4,503 bases of DNA from a virus. Under the pieces are notes generated by a model. It was not told the origin of the DNA. It did not search any database and saw only the letters and a program-made list of their open reading frames with translations. Within the stretch, counting starts at the first letter, position 1, and each line of letters begins with the position of its first letter. The stretch is taken from the UHGV virus genome UHGV-1974775; one strand, 5' to 3'. The position numbers and the translations under genes were made by a program. Below, piece after piece: positions 1-4,503 of this stretch.

Positions 1-617
1 AAAAAATCGTAGCCAATTCCTGGCCTGTTACTCATAGCTGAAAACTCGGGTAGGCGATGTCCATAATGCTCCTCTGAACGGGAACCGGTGACTTTTTTAA
101 CACAGTATCGCGCCACATATGCAGCCGACTCAAAGCTAAAGCCAGCAATAACAGAAAAGCCAAAAGTCCAGCATCTTTCAAGAAGCGAAGACCTAAATAA
201 ATTAAATCTTCCAGCTTTATGCAGTGTCTTATCCGGAAAATCATATCCAAAAATAATCGCATGATAATGCGGTCGCTCTAATTTAGAGCCATATTCACCA
301 CAGCCGAAAAAACGAATTGAAATATCATCAACAGACAAAGCCTTACGCAAACGCTTCATAAAATCGGTGAAATGTTTACGAACGAGAGTTCCGCCTTCGG
401 GTAAATTCTCAGGCGAATAAGTCAGGGTGATAAAACAATTGTGATCGTGCATGTGGGCTTCATGAACACAGCGGGTCGCCCAGTCACGAGAATGGGCAAG
501 ACGGCAACCGATGCACTGACCGCAAGGCAACTGAATGAATTTAGCGCCACGTGACGGCGTGAAAAAAATCTTCCCCGATGGCATCTGGTACGCGTTTAAC
601 GGACGGGTACAAGCCAT
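1..617 (-). CDS. VP4: Replication initiation protein (HUH rolling-circle endonuclease), 5' portion (codons 1-205 plus two bases of codon 206); continues at 4257..4503 across the circular junction
   Basis: Hand translation of the minus strand from ATG at 617..615 gives MACTRPLNAYQMPSGKIFFTPSRGAKFIQLPCGQCIGCRLAHSRDWATRCVHEAHMHDHNCFITLTYSPENL...RPHYHAIIFGYDF...SAAYVARYCVKKVTGS...NRPGIGYDF, with no stop before position 1. It carries the three rolling-circle motifs: motif I CFITLTY (417..437), HUH motif PHYHAIIFG (246..272) and the two-tyrosine motif YVARYCVKK (93..119; compare phiX174 gene A YVAKYVNKK). SD GGAGG at 628..624, 6 nt before the ATG. Not in the ORF track because no stop falls inside the window. 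Confidence 0.88.
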   Translation of the reverse strand, partial: MACTRPLNAYQMPSGKIFFTPSRGAKFIQLPCGQCIGCRLAHSRDWATRCVHEAHMHDHNCFITLTYSPENLPEGGTLVRKHFTDFMKRLRKALSVDDISIRFFGCGEYGSKLERPHYHAIIFGYDFPDKTLHKAGRFNLFRSSLLERCWTFGFSVIAGFSFESAAYVARYCVKKVTGSRSEEHYGHRLPEFSAMSNRPGIGYDF

Positions 618-638
618 GACACACCTCCATAATTCACG

Positions 639-660
639 TATGCGCACCTTGGTGCGCATA
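639..660. repeat. Perfect inverted repeat TATGCGCACC-tt-GGTGCGCATA; its right arm is the XerC-binding arm of the dif-like site
   Basis: rc(639..648) = 651..660 exactly (10 nt arms, GC-rich). It would fold into a hairpin in the ssDNA genome and in the rep 5' leader, about 10 nt upstream of the rep SD. Confidence 0.7.
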
Positions 661-678
661 ATGTATATTTAGTTTAAC
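651..678. other. dif-like XerC/XerD recombination site (putative attP for host-Xer-mediated integration)
   Basis: Plus strand GGTGCGCATAA-TGTATA-TTTAGTTTAAC compared with canonical E. coli dif GGTGCGCATAA-TGTATA-TTATGTTAAAT (as I recall it): XerC arm 11/11, central region 6/6, XerD arm 7/11, total 24/28. It lies in the VP8-rep intergenic region. Confidence 0.75.
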
Positions 679-692
679 AAAAACAACGACTT

Positions 693-720
693 ACGATAAT
701 TATCGTAGATCGTTACGATC
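693..720. repeat. Two adjacent palindromes ACGATAATTATCGT (693..706) and GATCGTtACGATC (708..720) sharing the half-site ACGAT/ATCGT; contains two GATC sites (708..711, 717..720)
   Basis: Both palindromes are visible directly in the sequence: four copies of the pentamer ACGAT/ATCGT in alternating orientation within 28 nt, overlapping the candidate rep promoter spacer and -10. Confidence 0.6.
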
Positions 721-731
721 AACTTTGTCAA
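702..731 (-). promoter_or_regulatory. Candidate sigma70-type promoter for rep: -35 TTGACA (731..726), 18-nt spacer, -10 TACGAT (707..702)
   Basis: Minus strand reads TGA(VP8 stop)-TTGACA-aagttgatcgtaacgatc-TACGAT. The -35 is a perfect consensus; the -10 matches TATAAT at 4 of 6 positions including the key T1, A2 and T6. Identified by eye only. Confidence 0.35.
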
Positions 732-851
732 TCAAAGACGAATACCGCCACGCATCGAACGGGCTTTAAAGTTTCGCTTATGCGTCTTTGCGTACTTACG
801 GAACGAACGACGAGAAGAACGCTTGGACATACGACGGCGAGAACGAGCCAT
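732..851 (-). CDS. VP8: Small arginine-rich DNA-binding protein (VP8/J-like), 39 aa
   Basis: Hand translation of minus strand 851..732 gives MARSRRRMSKRSSRRSFRKYAKTHKRNFKARSMRGGIRL, followed by TGA (734..732). About 40% of residues are Arg or Lys (11 R, 5 K in 39 aa). The C-terminal MRGGIRL resembles the C-terminus I recall for the Chlamydia-phage small basic ORF8 protein. ATG is 1 nt after the VP2 stop (TAA 855..853), with GGAGG at 860..856. Absent from the ORF track, probably because it is below the length cutoff. Confidence 0.72.
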   Translation of the reverse strand: MARSRRRMSKRSSRRSFRKYAKTHKRNFKARSMRGGIRL

Positions 852-852
852 A

Positions 853-1635
853 TTACCTCCTAGGGGTTACTCGGAAAAACAGGGGGGAAGAATCCCCCCT
901 TTGGTTTACGGACTTAGCACTATTAGAATCGCGAAAGCCAAAGCCATCAAGACCTGAAATACGACGTAACCAACTACCAATCGCATTACCTTGTCCGACA
1001 AACCCTTTCCCTTGAGAGTCATAATTAACCTTAAGTGATTGAGCACCAGTCGGTGTATTCAAATAATCAGCCAGAACCTTGTCCTGAACAGTTTGATACT
1101 GTGTTCTAATCCGCTGCGCAGAACTGAGGCCTGTCTGTGCTTCAATATTGGCACGACGAGAAGCCTCGGTCAAAACCTGCTGATTAATCAGATTCGACTG
1201 CGATCGCATGTTATCGGCACTCTGGATAGCCTGGTCAGCCTGAGCCGTTTTAAGACGCACATCAGCCGCGCTATTCGCAATCTGGTTACGTTGTAACGCA
1301 ATCTGAGACTCAATGCCTTCACGGGCAACCTTTTGCTGCTCACGCTTCGTCAGAGCGTCGAACGCGGCAACGGCAGAGTTAACCGCACCAGAATAATCGG
1401 CAGGGGCAGCCTGCTGAATACCGGAAGAACTGACGGAACCAAGACCACCGGAACCATTAACGGCCAGAATCGGGTTAAGACCTGCTTTTCGCAAATCCTG
1501 TACGCGGTACTGCATACCGTTTTTGGCCAAATCCATCGTTAACTTGTTCGCCTGAGCGGCGTTCTGCTGGGCAGAGTGGGCACCAAGAAGAGAACCGGCA
1601 ACGGAACCTACAGCACCTGCAATTGCTCCCCACAT
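853..1635 (-). CDS. VP2: Minor capsid / DNA pilot protein
   Basis: 260-aa ORF immediately downstream of VP1 on the same strand. It has a Gly/Ala/Ser-rich N-terminus, the motif YRVQDLRKAGLNPILAV (the AGLNP motif recalled from Microviridae pilot proteins) and a Gln/Ala-rich central region that looks coiled-coil-like. SD GAGGTG lies 5 nt upstream of the ATG at 1635. Confidence 0.78.
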   Translation of the reverse strand: MWGAIAGAVGSVAGSLLGAHSAQQNAAQANKLTMDLAKNGMQYRVQDLRKAGLNPILAVNGSGGLGSVSSSGIQQAAPADYSGAVNSAVAAFDALTKREQQKVAREGIESQIALQRNQIANSAADVRLKTAQADQAIQSADNMRSQSNLINQQVLTEASRRANIEAQTGLSSAQRIRTQYQTVQDKVLADYLNTPTGAQSLKVNYDSQGKGFVGQGNAIGSWLRRISGLDGFGFRDSNSAKSVNQRGDSSPLFFRVTPRR

Positions 1636-1649
1636 AATTTCACCTCATG

Positions 1650-1672
1650 AAAAAAAGGCCTCCGAAGAGGCC
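1650..1672 (-). terminator. Rho-independent terminator/attenuator between VP1 and VP2
   Basis: On the minus-strand transcript, 13 nt after the VP1 stop (TAA 1688..1686): GGCCUC-UUCG-GAGGCC (6-bp GC-rich stem 1657..1662/1667..1672 with a UUCG tetraloop) followed directly by seven U (1656..1650). The VP2 SD and ATG follow 14 nt later. Confidence 0.6.
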
Positions 1673-1685
1673 AAAGAGTTGGGTT

Positions 1686-3365
1686 TTAAAAATGGTCAAT
1701 AAGACCGGGTACTGAATAAACTGGCATAGGCCGCACACATTTCAGGTCAAAGAATGCATCCAGAATGAACTGAGGCTCGTCCTGAACGGCCAGAACACGA
1801 CTCATCGGTGGATTCTCTTCGATGAACTCCTGATTCAATGCGGGCAGAGAGTCGAACCGCTGGGCTAAATGCCACACATCGAGGGATTGCGGGTCTGTGG
1901 AACGTAATTTACCAGTAATCTGGGATGGACGATAGCGGTACTCCGCGTAACGTTCCTGATAGCCAAAGACTTCATCATCTTTAGCGTTGCCTTGCGCATA
2001 AATCTCCTTGTTAAGAATAGCCTGTTCGCCCAGGTGGGCCAGTGCAGGCCAGTAGAAATCAAAGCGGGTCTGACGGGAGAACATGCGCGGGATGCCTTGC
2101 TGATAGGTCAAATCTGCACGGACAGATACAAGACCAATGACAAAACAGTGCTCCACAAAAGAATGTGAAAAACCACGGTTAACACCACCGGAAACACCAT
2201 AAGCTGCGAGGTTACCTTGTGGGCTGGCATCGGTAGTCGCAGAGTTCTGAAGAACGGGATTGATATTTATATCGAACGAACCAGAGCCAAGATACTCAGG
2301 ACGCTGAACACGGGCATCAGGAGAAATGACGCCAAAATGACTGCGAATAATCTCAATGTATCGCGTACCACCGCGAGCATCACGCTCAAGCAGGCGCTGA
2401 AGCTGGAACGCCTGACGCAATGAGTTAATCGTGAGATTGTCAACAACTTCACCACCTGTCTTTTCCAAAGTAACCGGAGGTTTGCCCGGAAGGAAACCGG
2501 AAATAACGTCATAACGTCCCTGAACAGGAGATTCAGGCCAGTTAATACCATTCTGAAGGCCACCGCTCAAATAGAGACCTGTATCGGCGTCAAGACCACT
2601 ACGGGCAATATAGCCCGTACCAGCAACAGTCTGGCCGCCGGCGCCATAAGACTGCGTAAAGAACGCTAAACCATCCGGATATTCCGGATAATTCAACGAG
2701 TACGACGGCGGAACGCCTAAACCAATCTCAACACCTTCGCCTTTCTGAGGCCACGGAAGGGCACTTGTGAAGTAATCATGACGCTTGGCACGCTTACGCA
2801 GCGGGAAATTTGCGAGACCTGTTTCCGTCTCATCGCCAAGCGGAAGCGGGGCGGAATTAATCAGGTTTTCGTCACGATACCACTCGTTATAAATCAGGTT
2901 ATAAGCGCGGAACGGCAGGGCGCTTACGCTGATACCTTCGACACCTGTAGGAACACCAAAATAATCGGCAAGAGAGCCAACAGGGAAACCGCCAGCAGGG
3001 GCTGTAATCTGCGGAATCAAATAATCCGTAGAATCACCAGGGTTCTTCTGTTCTCCGTTGAATTTCTGCCAGTTATCCCAGACGAGGCGATAAGGTACAG
3101 AAAAATACTGAATATCCAGACGTAGATTATCCATGAAAGGAACCACGGGCGTGGAAAGACGCGCGAGAACACTCGTTTTAAGGTGGAACGTATCACCCGG
3201 CAAAGCCTCATCCAGAAACACGGGAATCAAATAACCAGCGTCAAAGGTGGTTTTATAACCAGAACTACGGTTAAAGACCGAACGCTGAATATTAGCACTC
3301 GGGATTACTGAAAAATTATGCTGACTTTTTGCATTACTAGGTACTTTACGACCGAATTTACTCAT
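1686..3365 (-). CDS. VP1: Major capsid protein
   Basis: 559-aa ORF. The N-terminal region (SVIPSANIQRSVFNRSSGYKTTFDAGYLIPVF...LARLSTPVVPFMDNLRLDIQYFSVPYRLVWDNWQKFNGEQKNPGDSTDYL...YFTSALPWPQKG) matches the conserved pattern of gokushovirus VP1 as I recall it from Chlamydia-phage-type capsid proteins. ATG at 3365 preceded by a G-rich SD (GAGGGGGG). It is the largest ORF and fills 37% of the genome. Confidence 0.95.
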   Translation of the reverse strand: MSKFGRKVPSNAKSQHNFSVIPSANIQRSVFNRSSGYKTTFDAGYLIPVFLDEALPGDTFHLKTSVLARLSTPVVPFMDNLRLDIQYFSVPYRLVWDNWQKFNGEQKNPGDSTDYLIPQITAPAGGFPVGSLADYFGVPTGVEGISVSALPFRAYNLIYNEWYRDENLINSAPLPLGDETETGLANFPLRKRAKRHDYFTSALPWPQKGEGVEIGLGVPPSYSLNYPEYPDGLAFFTQSYGAGGQTVAGTGYIARSGLDADTGLYLSGGLQNGINWPESPVQGRYDVISGFLPGKPPVTLEKTGGEVVDNLTINSLRQAFQLQRLLERDARGGTRYIEIIRSHFGVISPDARVQRPEYLGSGSFDININPVLQNSATTDASPQGNLAAYGVSGGVNRGFSHSFVEHCFVIGLVSVRADLTYQQGIPRMFSRQTRFDFYWPALAHLGEQAILNKEIYAQGNAKDDEVFGYQERYAEYRYRPSQITGKLRSTDPQSLDVWHLAQRFDSLPALNQEFIEENPPMSRVLAVQDEPQFILDAFFDLKCVRPMPVYSVPGLIDHF

Positions 3366-3392
3366 AAACCCCCCTCAGGGAATTGTTTAAAT

Positions 3393-3421
3393 ACTATACA
3401 AACCACTGTATAAACTGACAC
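3393..3421 (-). promoter_or_regulatory. Weak candidate promoter upstream of VP1: -35 GTGTCA (3421..3416), 17-nt spacer, -10 TATAGT (3398..3393)
   Basis: By-eye match on the minus strand: -35 matches TTGACA at 4/6 and -10 matches TATAAT at 5/6, with a 17-nt spacer; about 28 nt upstream of the VP1 ATG. Confidence 0.25.
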
Positions 3422-3465
3422 CTTTTTACAGGCTTCGTGGGAGCCGCCTGTAAGTTTCGGTGTCA

Positions 3466-3502
3466 CCTGGCACAGTTACATCAAGTAGGGCACTGTGCCA
3501 GG
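3466..3502. repeat. Perfect 11-bp inverted repeat (stem-loop) in the VP3-VP1 intergenic region
   Basis: CCTGGCACAGT (3466..3476) pairs with ACTGTGCCAGG (3492..3502); loop of 15 nt (3477..3491). Located 9 nt downstream of the VP3 stop on the coding strand, with no U-run after it. Confidence 0.65.
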
Positions 3503-3510
3503 CTGCAGGG

Positions 3511-4020
3511 TCAGGAGCCGTCTGCAGGTTTCGCGGGTTCAGAACCCGCATTTGATGCTTTATTCACATCAGCACCGGAACGCTCCCGCGGGGACGCCGG
3601 AGCAGGTTCCGACTCGCGAACCTTCGGTTCGGTCGCCGAAACCTCTCCGCCGCTCAACAATCCAAGCTCACGGGCTTTATCCCAGTTCGCCGGATCACTC
3701 ATGAATTCAACGTACTGTTTAACGTTATTACCAAACATCGCGCGAGTAGCGGACGGCAGGCTATTAAAGTCGTCGTTAACGTCGTCAATTAAAGCCATTG
3801 CGTCCACATAATCGGTAATCGCGGATGCATCGTAAAATTCAGCACGTTGAGTACTGGTAAACACGGTCGTGTCTCCCGTTCTTATCGCACGCTCAACAAT
3901 CTTATTGATGTCGCACTCATCGCGGAAATGCTGCTGGGTCATCGTGGGTTCTTTGAACTCGATGCCGGGCGACGGTGGCGGGTCATAGCGGGTATGGAAC
4001 TTACGCTTCGATGTACGCAT
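3511..4020 (-). CDS. VP3: Internal scaffolding protein
   Basis: 169-aa ORF with motifs I recognise from gokushovirus VP3 proteins: FRDECDINKIV near the N-terminus and RAMFGNNVKQYVEFMSDPANWDKARELGL later. ATG at 4020 with AAGGA 8 nt upstream. The C-terminal ~45 aa form a Pro/Ser/Ala/Glu-rich low-complexity tail. Confidence 0.8.
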   Translation of the reverse strand: MRTSKRKFHTRYDPPPSPGIEFKEPTMTQQHFRDECDINKIVERAIRTGDTTVFTSTQRAEFYDASAITDYVDAMALIDDVNDDFNSLPSATRAMFGNNVKQYVEFMSDPANWDKARELGLLSGGEVSATEPKVRESEPAPASPRERSGADVNKASNAGSEPAKPADGS

Positions 4021-4270
4021 TTTCAGAATCCTTCAGAAAGGCCGGAGTAGCTTCACAAACATAAACACGGTCAACGCTGACCGGAATAAGCTGTTCACCC
4101 TCAAAATCAAACGAAGTTACGCGATACAACGCAAAATCAGTACGCTGCATGCGGTTACAAAACGCATGCAATTGACCTTTCGCAATACCATCATGCTGAG
4201 CCATAAACATATAAACATCAGCATTAATCAGCTTGTCGTGAAATACATAAACTGCATCAGAGTGAGCCAT
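4001..4270 (-). CDS. Hypothetical 89-aa protein at the position occupied by VP5 in gokushoviruses (between rep and scaffold genes)
   Basis: ATG at 4270..4268 preceded by SD GAGGA with a 9-nt spacer (rc of 4271..4290 = aatgatGAGGAaattagaaa). The start overlaps the rep stop by 14 nt and the 3' end overlaps the VP3 start by 20 nt, a compact arrangement typical of Microviridae. I do not recognise the sequence itself, so the call is positional. Confidence 0.5.
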   Translation of the reverse strand: MAHSDAVYVFHDKLINADVYMFMAQHDGIAKGQLHAFCNRMQRTDFALYRVTSFDFEGEQLIPVSVDRVYVCEATPAFLKDSENAYIEA

Positions 4271-4503
4271 TTTCTAATTTCCTCATCATTCGCTGGAATT
4301 TAACCAGATTAAATTTATCTAAATCCTGCAAACGCCACGGGTCTAATACCTGAGCATTTAACTGGCGCTTTTCTTTATTTTGCTGCAACTTTTCCAAATC
4401 ACAGCCTGATAATAACTTGTCATAATAGCGGGGCGGTTTTATCTGACGACCGCCACGACCAATACACGCATCTGAATTAACTATGTCATCGTAATACTCC
4501 ATA
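4257..4503 (-). CDS. VP4: Replication initiation protein, 3' portion (last 81 codons plus stop), contiguous in frame with 1..617 if the molecule is circular
   Basis: ORF-track 81-aa ORF (MEYYDDIVNSDACIGRGGRQIKPPRYYDKLL...). Its first codon (4502..4500) sits immediately after the junction codon formed by positions 2,1,4503 (aaa on the plus strand = TTT, Phe), so the reading frame runs ...GIGYDFF-MEYYDD... with no stop. The combined protein is 287 aa. Confidence 0.72.
   Translation of the reverse strand, partial: MEYYDDIVNSDACIGRGGRQIKPPRYYDKLLSGCDLEKLQQNKEKRQLNAQVLDPWRLQDLDKFNLVKFQRMMRKLENGSL

What the first reader, a model, noticed from the sequence alone, without database searches (positions are those of the whole stretch)
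651..678. dif-like site with intact XerC arm and central region: likely XerCD-dependent integrative microvirus
The 28-nt stretch GGTGCGCATAATGTATATTTAGTTTAAC matches the E. coli chromosome dimer resolution site dif at 24 of 28 positions. The XerC-binding arm and the 6-bp central region are identical, and the XerD arm is degenerate (7/11). This is the pattern seen in attP sites of elements that hijack host XerC/XerD for integration (IMEX, for example CTX-type filamentous phages). For a lytic-type ssDNA microvirus it implies a temperate lifestyle with integration at host dif, as has been reported for enterobacterial gokushovirus prophages. The exact match to the E. coli-type XerC arm also points to an enterobacterial host.
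Basis: partly seen in the sequence, partly recalled or inferred. Interest (0 to 1): 0.85.

Follow-up and report, generated by a model that had tools for sequence, protein, structure and literature searches.

The report
Gokushovirus dif-like attachment site (known)
This small single-stranded DNA phage of E. coli carries a copy-cat of the bacterial chromosome's dif site, which lets it borrow the host's XerC/XerD enzymes to insert into the chromosome; this trick was already shown experimentally in 2020 for its close relative, phage EC6098.

Summary
Window 651-678 matches E. coli dif at 24/28 (XerC arm 11/11, central region 6/6, XerD arm 7/11). The best of 200 shuffles was 20/28 and about 2e-7 matches are expected by chance.

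The window is a complete 4,503-nt circular enterogokushovirus genome, 91.7% identical to Escherichia phage EC6098. It has no integrase.

A metagenome scaffold (L101) carries this same genome (4,502/4,503 nt) inserted exactly in an E. coli-type dif. It is flanked by the hybrid site (window sequence, 24/28) and a perfect dif (28/28). At least 20 further prophages (86-98% identical) show the same layout at the hipA-dif locus.

Kirchberger and Ochman (eLife 2020) showed that EC6098 integration needs xerC, xerD and both arms of a site 27/28 identical to this one. So the finding is real but already known.

One correction: the site is not CTX-type. It is a single double-stranded site with a weak XerD arm, as in TLC phage and the gonococcal island, but no XafT activator is encoded.

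Minor additions: the site lies between a promoter-like element and VP4; a clade-specific hairpin overlaps the XerC arm; IS1202-family elements target these sites; a probable replication origin lies elsewhere.

The parts
651..678 (+). dif-like phage attachment site (attP), 24/28 to E. coli dif
   Evidence: It is identical to attL of the integrated copy L101 and of E. coli prophages E9, MEI7BO1-21 and 06-00048.
651..661 (+). XerC-binding arm GGTGCGCATAA (11/11)
   Evidence: It is 10-11/11 in all relatives across three attP types. Position 1 is G here, in L101 and in mar4, and A in EC6098 and most others.
662..667 (+). central (overlap) region TGTATA, 6/6 identical to dif; the crossover must fall here
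   Evidence: Prophage attL combines the bacterial flank and XerC arm with the phage XerD arm. attR combines the phage XerC arm with the bacterial XerD arm and flank.
668..678 (+). degenerate XerD-binding arm TTTAGTTTAAC (7/11)
   Evidence: It is invariant within the window clade apart from one variant (TTTAGTTCAAC in L100). Other clades have TGATGTTAAGG or (G)TTATGTCAAA(A) instead.
639..660 (.). perfect 10-bp inverted repeat TATGCGCACC-TT-GGTGCGCATA: an inverted copy of the XerC arm abutting the real one; it forms a hairpin in ssDNA or mRNA
   Evidence: predicted in the MFE and centroid folds; region z = -3.2. It is present only in the window/EC6098 clade, so it is not required for integration. 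In E9 it is followed by a T-run and scores as terminator-like.
702..731 (-). sigma-70 promoter-like site TTGACA-18 nt-TACGAT reading towards the dif-like site and VP4
   Evidence: 10/12, the best on the coding strand. The E9 prophage has TTGACA-18-TATGGT at the same place. EC6098-like relatives read TATGAT there by eye. It was not detected in the mar4 or tcmA_3 clades. This is a consensus match only.
624..629 (-). Shine-Dalgarno sequence (GGAGGT) of VP4
   Evidence: Read directly from the sequence. It is conserved as cacacctcc in relatives.
1..617 (-). VP4 replication initiator, N-terminal 205 codons plus 2 bases (the gene wraps across the window ends)
   Evidence: 864-nt ORF continuous across the 1/4503 junction. 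Pfam REP_ORF2-G2P, E = 5.6e-21.
4257..4503 (-). VP4 C-terminal part
732..851 (-). VP8, 39-aa arginine-rich putative DNA-binding protein; the last gene before the site
   Evidence: EC6098 annotation.
853..1635 (-). VP2 DNA pilot protein
1686..3365 (-). VP1 major capsid protein
   Evidence: Pfam Phage_F, E = 6.6e-185.
3511..4020 (-). VP3 scaffold protein
   Evidence: Pfam Chlamy_scaf, E = 6.5e-35.
4001..4270 (-). VP5
   Evidence: Pfam Phage_ORF5, weak, below the curated cut-off; EC6098 annotation.
3459..3502 (-). conserved hairpin with loop ACTTGATGTAAC; probable rolling-circle origin. It is not part of attP but shows that the origin is elsewhere.

Best explanation
Window 651-678 is the attachment site (attP) of a temperate enterogokushovirus.

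Shown: the phage has no recombinase of its own. Its site offers host XerC a perfect binding arm and a central region identical to the chromosomal dif of E. coli, plus a weak XerD arm.

Shown from junctions: recombination between the replicative form and dif, with the crossover in or at the borders of the 6-bp central region, inserts the 4,503-nt genome. On the hipA side this gives attL (bacterial XerC arm + TGTATA + phage XerD arm, which equals the window sequence). On the other side it gives attR (phage XerC arm + TGTATA + bacterial XerD arm, 27-28/28). attR stays a working dif for chromosome dimer resolution.

Shown for EC6098 in the literature, inferred for this window: the reaction needs xerC, xerD and both arms, and it is reversible, so lysogens keep shedding circles.

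Inferred: the substrate is the double-stranded replicative form. The only elements invariant across all attP variants that integrate at dif are the XerC arm and the XerC-proximal TGTA of the central region, and no XafT-like activator is encoded. The most likely chemistry is therefore a XerC-initiated, FtsK-independent first strand exchange. The Holliday junction would then be finished by XerD or by replication.

Also inferred: the degenerate XerD arm in attL damps FtsK/XerD-driven excision, as proposed for the gonococcal genetic island.
For: - Site statistics: 24/28, with chance expectation about 2e-7.
- Genome identity: complete gokushovirus gene set, 91.7% identical to EC6098.
- No integrase and no DUF3653 in any ORF.
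- L101 is the same genome (1 mismatch in 4,503) integrated between attL (24/28) and a 28/28 dif, with E. coli flanks equal to K-12.
- Seven complete E. coli chromosomes and about 14 further contigs show the same attL/attR composition.
- Circular contigs with k-mer terminal overlaps carry the attP form (L102-L105). The window's own VP1 occurs on a 4,630-nt JGI contig, which is 4,503 + 127.
- Experiments on EC6098 (PMC7062461): 17.7% lysogens in wild type; 0% in the xerC and xerD deletion hosts; 0% for phage with either or both arms deleted; xerC complementation restored integration.
- The XerC arm and TGTA are conserved across three attP types, while the rest of the intergenic region diverges beyond alignment.
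- In the C5 prophage, attL keeps the phage central region TGTAAA and attR keeps the bacterial TGTATA.
- IS1202-family elements, which are reported to insert 5 bp from XerC-binding sites (PMC10132070), sit exactly 5 bp from the XerC arm of these phage-associated sites (L016 with a 5-bp duplication, and L013). This fits the idea that the sites behave as genuine Xer sites in cells.
Against: - No experiment has been done on this exact site. The G at XerC position 1 differs from the tested EC6098 site.
- The order of strand exchange is not established. The fully identical central region would also allow an FtsK-activated XerD-first reaction, as at dif itself.
- The C5 junction pattern is expected half the time under a full two-strand exchange. 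It would also be favoured by selection for a working dif at attR.
- xerD complementation failed in the published work, so the XerD requirement is less securely shown than the XerC requirement.
- The double-stranded substrate is assumed, not shown.
Confidence: 0.92

Rival explanations
1. The site mainly acts as a cer/psi-like multimer-resolution site for the phage's double-stranded replicative form. On this view integration at dif is an occasional by-product.
For: dif-like sites on small circular replicons classically resolve multimers (general knowledge of cer, psi and pdif). L016 carries a variant with a 7-bp central region unrelated to dif (CAAGCGG), and it assembles as a 5.9-kb circle rather than as a prophage. 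The paper reports long-term carriage of circles without integration.
Against: The window's central region is 6/6 identical to chromosomal dif, which is exactly what integration needs. The same genome is found integrated, and more than 20 prophages sit at dif. No accessory-protein binding sequences of the cer/psi type were identified. Most gokushoviruses lack any such site (PMC7062461), so it is not needed for replication.
Confidence: 0.05
2. The resemblance to dif is incidental. The sequence is really a transcriptional or translational control element in the VP4 leader (hairpin, attenuator or operator).
For: The XerC arm forms half of a perfect 10-bp hairpin just upstream of the VP4 Shine-Dalgarno sequence. 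The equivalent hairpin in E9 scores as terminator-like. A promoter-like site lies just upstream.
Against: A 24/28 match including 17 consecutive identical bases has a chance expectation of about 2e-7. Prophage junctions fall inside this site. The hairpin partner is missing in two clades that keep the dif-like site. A regulatory side-role remains possible but cannot explain the site.
Confidence: 0.02
3. CTX-type mechanism. On this view the single-stranded genome folds into a forked hairpin attP(+) and integrates irreversibly by XerC alone.
For: The virion DNA is single-stranded, and a hairpin involving the XerC arm is predicted.
Against: There is no second inverted dif-like site in the genome; the best minus-strand match is 16/28, and a gapped scan finds nothing. 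The hairpin covers only the XerC arm, not the central region or the XerD arm, and it is clade-specific. After integration two compatible sites remain, and EC6098 excises continuously, unlike CTX.
Confidence: 0.01

Closest known systems
Escherichia phage EC6098 (Enterogokushovirus) dif-motif; Kirchberger and Ochman, eLife 2020 (PMC7062461)
   Same: Same genus, gene order and position of the site between VP8 and VP4. The genome is 91.7% identical over 90% of its length. The site is 27/28 identical, with the same central region and XerD arm. Both integrate at E. coli dif next to hipA with the same attL/attR composition.
   Different: The window has G rather than A at XerC-arm position 1, so its XerC arm is a perfect copy of dif. 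After integration attR is a perfect 28/28 dif (L101). The genome is a distinct lineage: the best deposited phage record is under 92% identical, and the closest prophages are 96-99.98% identical.
TLC-phi attP (TLC-type IMEX) of Vibrio cholerae
   Same: A single double-stranded site in which the XerC arm and central region are essentially identical to host dif and the XerD arm is degenerate.
   Different: TLC-phi encodes the XerD activator XafT (DUF3653) and uses XerD-first catalysis. The window encodes no DUF3653. Its XerD arm (7/11) is less degenerate, and deletion experiments on EC6098 show the arm is required.
Gonococcal genetic island (difGGI)
   Same: [quoted passage not shown] The degenerate arm is thought to limit FtsK-dependent excision.
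   Different: The GGI is a large island that is stably kept. The gokushovirus is a 4.5-kb replicating phage that excises readily.
VGJ-phi attP (VGJ-type IMEX)
   Same: A single double-stranded attP, reversible integration that leaves two compatible sites, and no accessory factor known. The mar4/C5 clade of enterogokushoviruses fits this type well: TGTA|AA(G) diverges on the XerD side, and a 7-bp spacer is possible.
   Different: The window's central region is fully identical to dif, so XerD-side exchange is not blocked by lack of homology.
CTX-phi attP(+) (CTX-type IMEX)
   Same: An ssDNA phage without an integrase that uses host XerCD at dif.
   Different: CTX needs two inverted sites folded in ssDNA, has a central region mismatched on the XerD side, and integrates irreversibly. 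None of these features is present here.
Bacteroidetes microvirus proviruses (Krupovic and Forterre 2011, PMC3091885)
   Same: Microviridae-related proviruses without an integrase, proposed to use XerCD and dif-like sites.
   Different: They belong to a different subfamily and host phylum, and their mechanism is only hypothesised. Here the host dif is known and the junctions are defined to the base.

Membership tests
IMEX (integrative mobile element exploiting Xer) | No self-encoded integrase or recombinase | tested here: met
   Pfam scan of the six genes and four further ORFs found only Rep, Phage_F, Chlamy_scaf and a weak Phage_ORF5.
IMEX (integrative mobile element exploiting Xer) | dif-like attP: 11-bp XerC and XerD arms separated by a 6-8 bp central region | tested here: met
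   651-678 scores 11/11, 6/6 and 7/11 against the host dif.
IMEX (integrative mobile element exploiting Xer) | Found integrated at the host dif, bracketed by direct dif-like repeats of hybrid composition | tested here: met
   L101 is 4,502/4,503 identical, with attL 24/28, attR 28/28 and E. coli flanks. Seven complete genomes and about 14 other contigs show the same. The empty K-12 site was used for comparison.
IMEX (integrative mobile element exploiting Xer) | Integration depends on host XerC and XerD | not testable with these tools
   Shown for EC6098, whose site is 27/28 identical, in PMC7062461. It is inferred for this genome.
Enterogokushovirus (Gokushovirinae) | Gene set and order VP4-VP5-VP3-VP1-VP2-VP8 on one strand, about 4.3-4.7 kb circular | tested here: met
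   The VP4 ORF closes the circle in frame.
Enterogokushovirus (Gokushovirinae) | Close nucleotide relationship to the type phage and to Escherichia prophages | tested here: met
   91.7% identical to EC6098, 86-90% to seven E. coli chromosomes, and 96-99.98% to further contigs.
CTX-type IMEX | Two inverted dif-like sites that fold in ssDNA into attP(+) | tested here: not met
   The best minus-strand match is 16/28. A gapped arm scan finds no second site.
CTX-type IMEX | Central region homologous to dif only next to the XerC arm; irreversible integration | tested here: not met
   The central region is 6/6 identical. EC6098 excises continuously.
VGJ-type IMEX | Single double-stranded attP that leaves two compatible sites | tested here: met
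   There is one site. attL and attR both retain arms and the central region.
VGJ-type IMEX | No homology to dif on the XerD side of the central region | tested here: not met
   The window's TGTATA equals dif. The feature is met only in the mar4/C5 clade, which has TGTAAA(G).
TLC-type IMEX | XerC arm and central region as in dif, with a degenerate XerD arm | tested here: met
TLC-type IMEX | Encodes a XafT (DUF3653) XerD-activation factor | tested here: not met
   No DUF3653 hit in any ORF at E <= 0.01. A non-homologous activator cannot be excluded.

The most novel reading that the evidence does not exclude
The position of the site may make integration itself the lysogeny switch. The crossover point (662-667) lies between the only good promoter-like element on the coding strand of this gap (TTGACA-18-TACGAT at 731-702; TATGAT in most relatives) and the Shine-Dalgarno/ATG of the replication initiator VP4 (629-615).

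In the circle, VP4 can be transcribed from this promoter or by read-through from VP8. In the prophage, VP4 becomes the outermost gene, 47 nt from bacterial DNA. It is cut off from all phage transcription, and the scan found no promoter-like site in about 420 nt of the bacterial flank.

A repressor-less phage would then be silenced by integration and re-armed by Xer-mediated excision. The XerC-arm hairpin would act as an extra attenuator.
Probability: 0.25. Interest if true: 0.5.

Novelty: already known. Interest (0 to 1): 0.2.

Why it matters
As a finding, it confirms that sequence reading alone can spot a Xer-hijacking temperate microvirus. It also adds a natural pair: the free circular genome and its integrated twin, which differ at one base.

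It does not change what is known. XerCD-dependent lysogeny of enterogokushoviruses was established in 2020.

What remains open, and what this site could help test, is the mechanism. The site is a perfect XerC arm and central region with a weak XerD arm and no XafT. This raises four questions:
- Which recombinase acts first?
- Is FtsK involved?
- What limits excision?
- Does integration silence the replication gene by separating it from its promoter?

Tried and rejected
1. Idea: G versus A at XerC-arm position 1 separates free genomes from prophages. After this looked plausible (window and mar4 have G; all attR sites had A). It was rejected by L101, an integrated copy with G at attR, and by circular contigs L102-L105 with A.

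2. Exact-pattern scans of the species-representative genomes found nothing. I tried the phage-type site and the L013 flank/dif junction, so the L013 host could not be named that way. Its right flank equals that of E. coli SWHEFF_68 next to a perfect dif.

3. The exact look-up of VP1 on contigs found nothing, although the cluster table shows it on JGI contigs. I could not fetch the JGI contig itself.

4. I considered using the C5 prophage (attL TGTAAA, attR TGTATA) as proof of XerC-side crossover. I judged it inconclusive. A complete two-strand exchange followed by replication gives the same pattern half the time, and selection for a working dif at attR biases it further.

5. Idea: the inverted XerC-arm hairpin is a conserved part of attP. 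It is absent in the tcmA_3/PSS-15 and mar4/C5 clades.

6. Idea: the promoter-like site is conserved across the genus. It was detected only in the window/EC6098 clade.

7. Rfam at a permissive threshold gave only a sub-threshold suhB hit on the VP1 terminator region.

8. Idea: the dif region is the replication origin. The conserved origin-like hairpin lies in the other non-coding gap.

Full report
**What the window is.** The 4,503-nt window is a complete, circularly permuted gokushovirus genome with all genes on the minus strand.
- VP4 (replication initiator) runs 617..1 and continues in frame at 4503..4257.
- The other genes are VP5 (4270..4001), VP3 (4020..3511), VP1 (3365..1686), VP2 (1635..853) and VP8 (851..732).
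- Pfam recognises Rep (REP_ORF2-G2P), the Phage_F capsid and the Chlamydia-phage scaffold. It finds no integrase and no DUF3653.
- The closest deposited phage is Escherichia phage EC6098, genus Enterogokushovirus, at 91.7% identity over 90% of the genome.
- The exact VP1 occurs only on JGI/IMG metagenome contigs, the longest 4,630 nt. That equals 4,503 + 127, the usual signature of a circular assembly.

**The observation.** Positions 651-678 read GGTGCGCATAA TGTATA TTTAGTTTAAC.
- Against E. coli dif this is 24/28: XerC arm 11/11, central region 6/6, XerD arm 7/11. I confirmed the dif sequence in MG1655 at 1590750-1590777.
- It is the only such site. The next best match on either strand is 16/28, the best of 200 shuffles reached 20/28, and the chance expectation is about 2e-7.
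- The XerD arm match at a fixed position has p = 0.008-0.02, so the arm is degenerate but recognisable.
- The site lies in the 114-nt gap between the VP8 stop and the VP4 start.

**Is it an attachment site?** Yes. The evidence is direct.
- Scaffold L101 (ENA ERZ28595803, 4,593 nt) contains this genome with one mismatch in 4,503 (window position 2491). It is bounded on the left by 36 nt that match the hipA-side flank of K-12 dif at 35 of 36 positions, followed by attL, which equals the window's 24/28 site.
- On the right it is bounded by a perfect 28/28 dif followed by 26 nt identical to the other K-12 flank. The repeat unit is exactly 4,503 nt.
- Seven of 5,426 complete E. coli chromosomes carry 86-90% identical prophages at the same place, just downstream of hipBA.
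- Further prophages, mostly 95-98% identical, occur in E. coli isolate and metagenome contigs.
- The composition is constant. attL is the bacterial flank and XerC arm, the central region, and the phage XerD arm. attR is the phage XerC arm, the central region, and the bacterial XerD arm and flank. The crossover therefore falls in or at the edges of the central region, as expected for Xer recombination.
- attR remains 27-28/28, so the host keeps a working dif.
- Circular contigs with k-mer terminal overlaps (L102-L105) carry the attP form, with phage DNA on both sides.

**Published experiments.** Kirchberger and Ochman (eLife 2020, PMC7062461) resurrected EC6098, whose site is 27/28 identical to the window's.
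- It integrates at dif of BW25113.
- Integration is lost in xerC and xerD deletion hosts. It is restored by xerC complementation, but xerD complementation failed.
- Integration is also lost when either arm of the phage motif is deleted.
- Lysogens continuously excise and reintegrate.
- They also reported that the phage-derived motifs vary mostly in the spacer and the XerD arm.

- CTX needs two inverted sites that fold in ssDNA, and a central region mismatched on the XerD side. The window has one site and a fully matching central region.
- The layout is the one described for TLC-phi and for the gonococcal island: a perfect XerC arm and central region with a degenerate XerD arm. However, the window lacks the TLC activator XafT/DUF3653.
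- Relatives show three attP types: the window type; TGTATA + TGATGTTAAGG (tcmA_3, PSS-15); and TGTAAA(G) + TTATGTCAAA(A) (mar4, C5). The third type diverges from dif on the XerD side of the spacer and is VGJ-like.
- Only the XerC arm (10-11/11) and the XerC-proximal TGTA are invariant across these three types. From that, and from the absence of an activator, I infer a XerC-initiated first exchange. This is inference.
- The C5 junction (attL phage-type spacer, attR bacterial spacer) agrees with that inference but does not prove it.
- An FtsK/XerD-first route remains possible for the window type.

**Surroundings.**
- *Hairpin.* A perfect 10-bp inverted repeat (639-648 / 651-660) makes the XerC arm half of a hairpin just upstream of the VP4 Shine-Dalgarno sequence. 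It is present only in the window/EC6098 clade, so integration does not depend on it. In E9 it is followed by a T-run and scores as terminator-like.
- *Promoter-like site.* The best promoter-like site on the coding strand (TTGACA-18-TACGAT, 731..702) lies just after VP8 and upstream of the site. The dif-like site therefore sits in the putative VP4 leader.
- *Consequence of integration.* In the prophage, VP4 is the outermost gene, 47 nt from bacterial DNA. The promoter-like element ends up at the opposite end of the prophage, pointing out towards hipA.
- *Bacterial flank.* No promoter-like site was found in about 420 nt of bacterial flank reading into VP4.
- *Status of the idea.* This suggests, but does not show, that integration silences VP4. 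The promoter match is clade-limited, and the eLife paper does not address transcription.

**Controls.** Among 78 distant gokushoviruses from IMG/VR (VP4 identity 50% or less), 71 match E. coli dif at only 15-18/28. Seven reach 20-22/28 with other dif flavours. This agrees with the published view that dif-motifs arose sporadically in the subfamily.

**Verdict.** The novelty rating is "already known": this is a further lineage of a characterised genus, carrying the characterised site. Interest is low, because the main finding repeats established work. The residual interest lies in the unresolved strand-exchange mechanism and in the possible promoter-severing switch.

Noticed in passing
window 3459-3502 (minus/viral strand), in the VP3-VP1 non-coding gap 3366-3510: A 44-nt hairpin, CCTGGCACAGT-GCCCTACTTGATGTA-ACTGTGCCAGG followed by TGACACC, is 95-98% identical in otherwise unrelated microviruses (Eel River pequenovirus, bajarodmic viruses 446 and 447). 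Its loop core ACTTGATGTAAC occurs on the VP4-sense strand in 30 of 78 distant gokushoviruses. From memory it resembles the phiX174 origin CAACTTG/ATATT, so it is probably the VP4 nick site and rolling-circle origin. The gap folds with z = -3.9. I found no paper describing it.
   Followed up: partly
L016 1-1564 and 5930-5956 (IMG/VR UViG_2938192669_000002); also L013, L098 and L099 upstream of attL: A 1.5-kb IS1202/ISNCY-family element (491-aa transposase, 5-bp duplication AAGGG) is inserted exactly 5 bp outside the XerC arm of a gokushovirus dif-like site. It turns the phage into a 5.9-kb circle that is probably too large to package. A second IS of this family abuts attL at the same 5-bp distance in L013, L098 and L099. 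This matches the reported targeting of dif/pdif sites by this IS family (PMC10132070), here hitting a phage attP.
   Followed up: partly
L016 5916-5944 (reverse strand): This relative's site is AGTGCGCATAA CAAGCGG TTATGTTAAAG. It has a good XerD arm (10/11) but a 7-bp central region unrelated to dif. It would be incompatible with strand exchange at chromosomal dif, so it may serve only in multimer resolution or target another site.
   Followed up: no
attL sites of L004, L100, L107, L110 and L111; attR of L108 and L109: Several prophages carry point changes in the bacterial-derived arms. attL has GATGCGCATAA in five loci, and attR ends ...TTAAAC in two. These could be dif polymorphisms, or mutations that lock the prophage in place. 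I did not resolve which.
   Followed up: no
window 657-659 (minus strand ATG inside the XerC arm): An ATG within the XerC arm is in frame with VP4 (14 extra codons, MRTKVRIRELWRCV). The EC6098 GenBank record starts VP4 there. The strong Shine-Dalgarno sequence before the ATG at 617, and the RefSeq calls in prophages, favour the shorter protein. In a prophage the longer start would still lie within attR.
   Followed up: partly
window 881-900 and 1657-1672 (minus strand): There are two strong terminator-like hairpins. GGCCTCTTCGGAGGCC+T7 lies just after the VP1 stop. AGGGGGGATTCTTCCCCCCT lies inside the 3' end of the VP2 ORF. Both are conserved in relatives, which suggests segmented transcription of the circle.
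   Followed up: no
L015 (E. coli SWHEFF_68) 7000-12900: In this strain and many others, the DNA immediately right of a perfect dif is an island encoding two adjacent site-specific integrases. This is the same right flank as in L013, L098 and L099. It represents a different dif-adjacent context from the K-12 yneL/fimbrial one.
   Followed up: no
L071, L081 and L088 (distant gokushoviruses): These carry ACGTCCGATAA TGTATA TTATGTTAAAT. The central region and XerD arm are identical to enterobacterial dif, but the XerC arm is degenerate. This is the reverse of the window's pattern.
   Followed up: no
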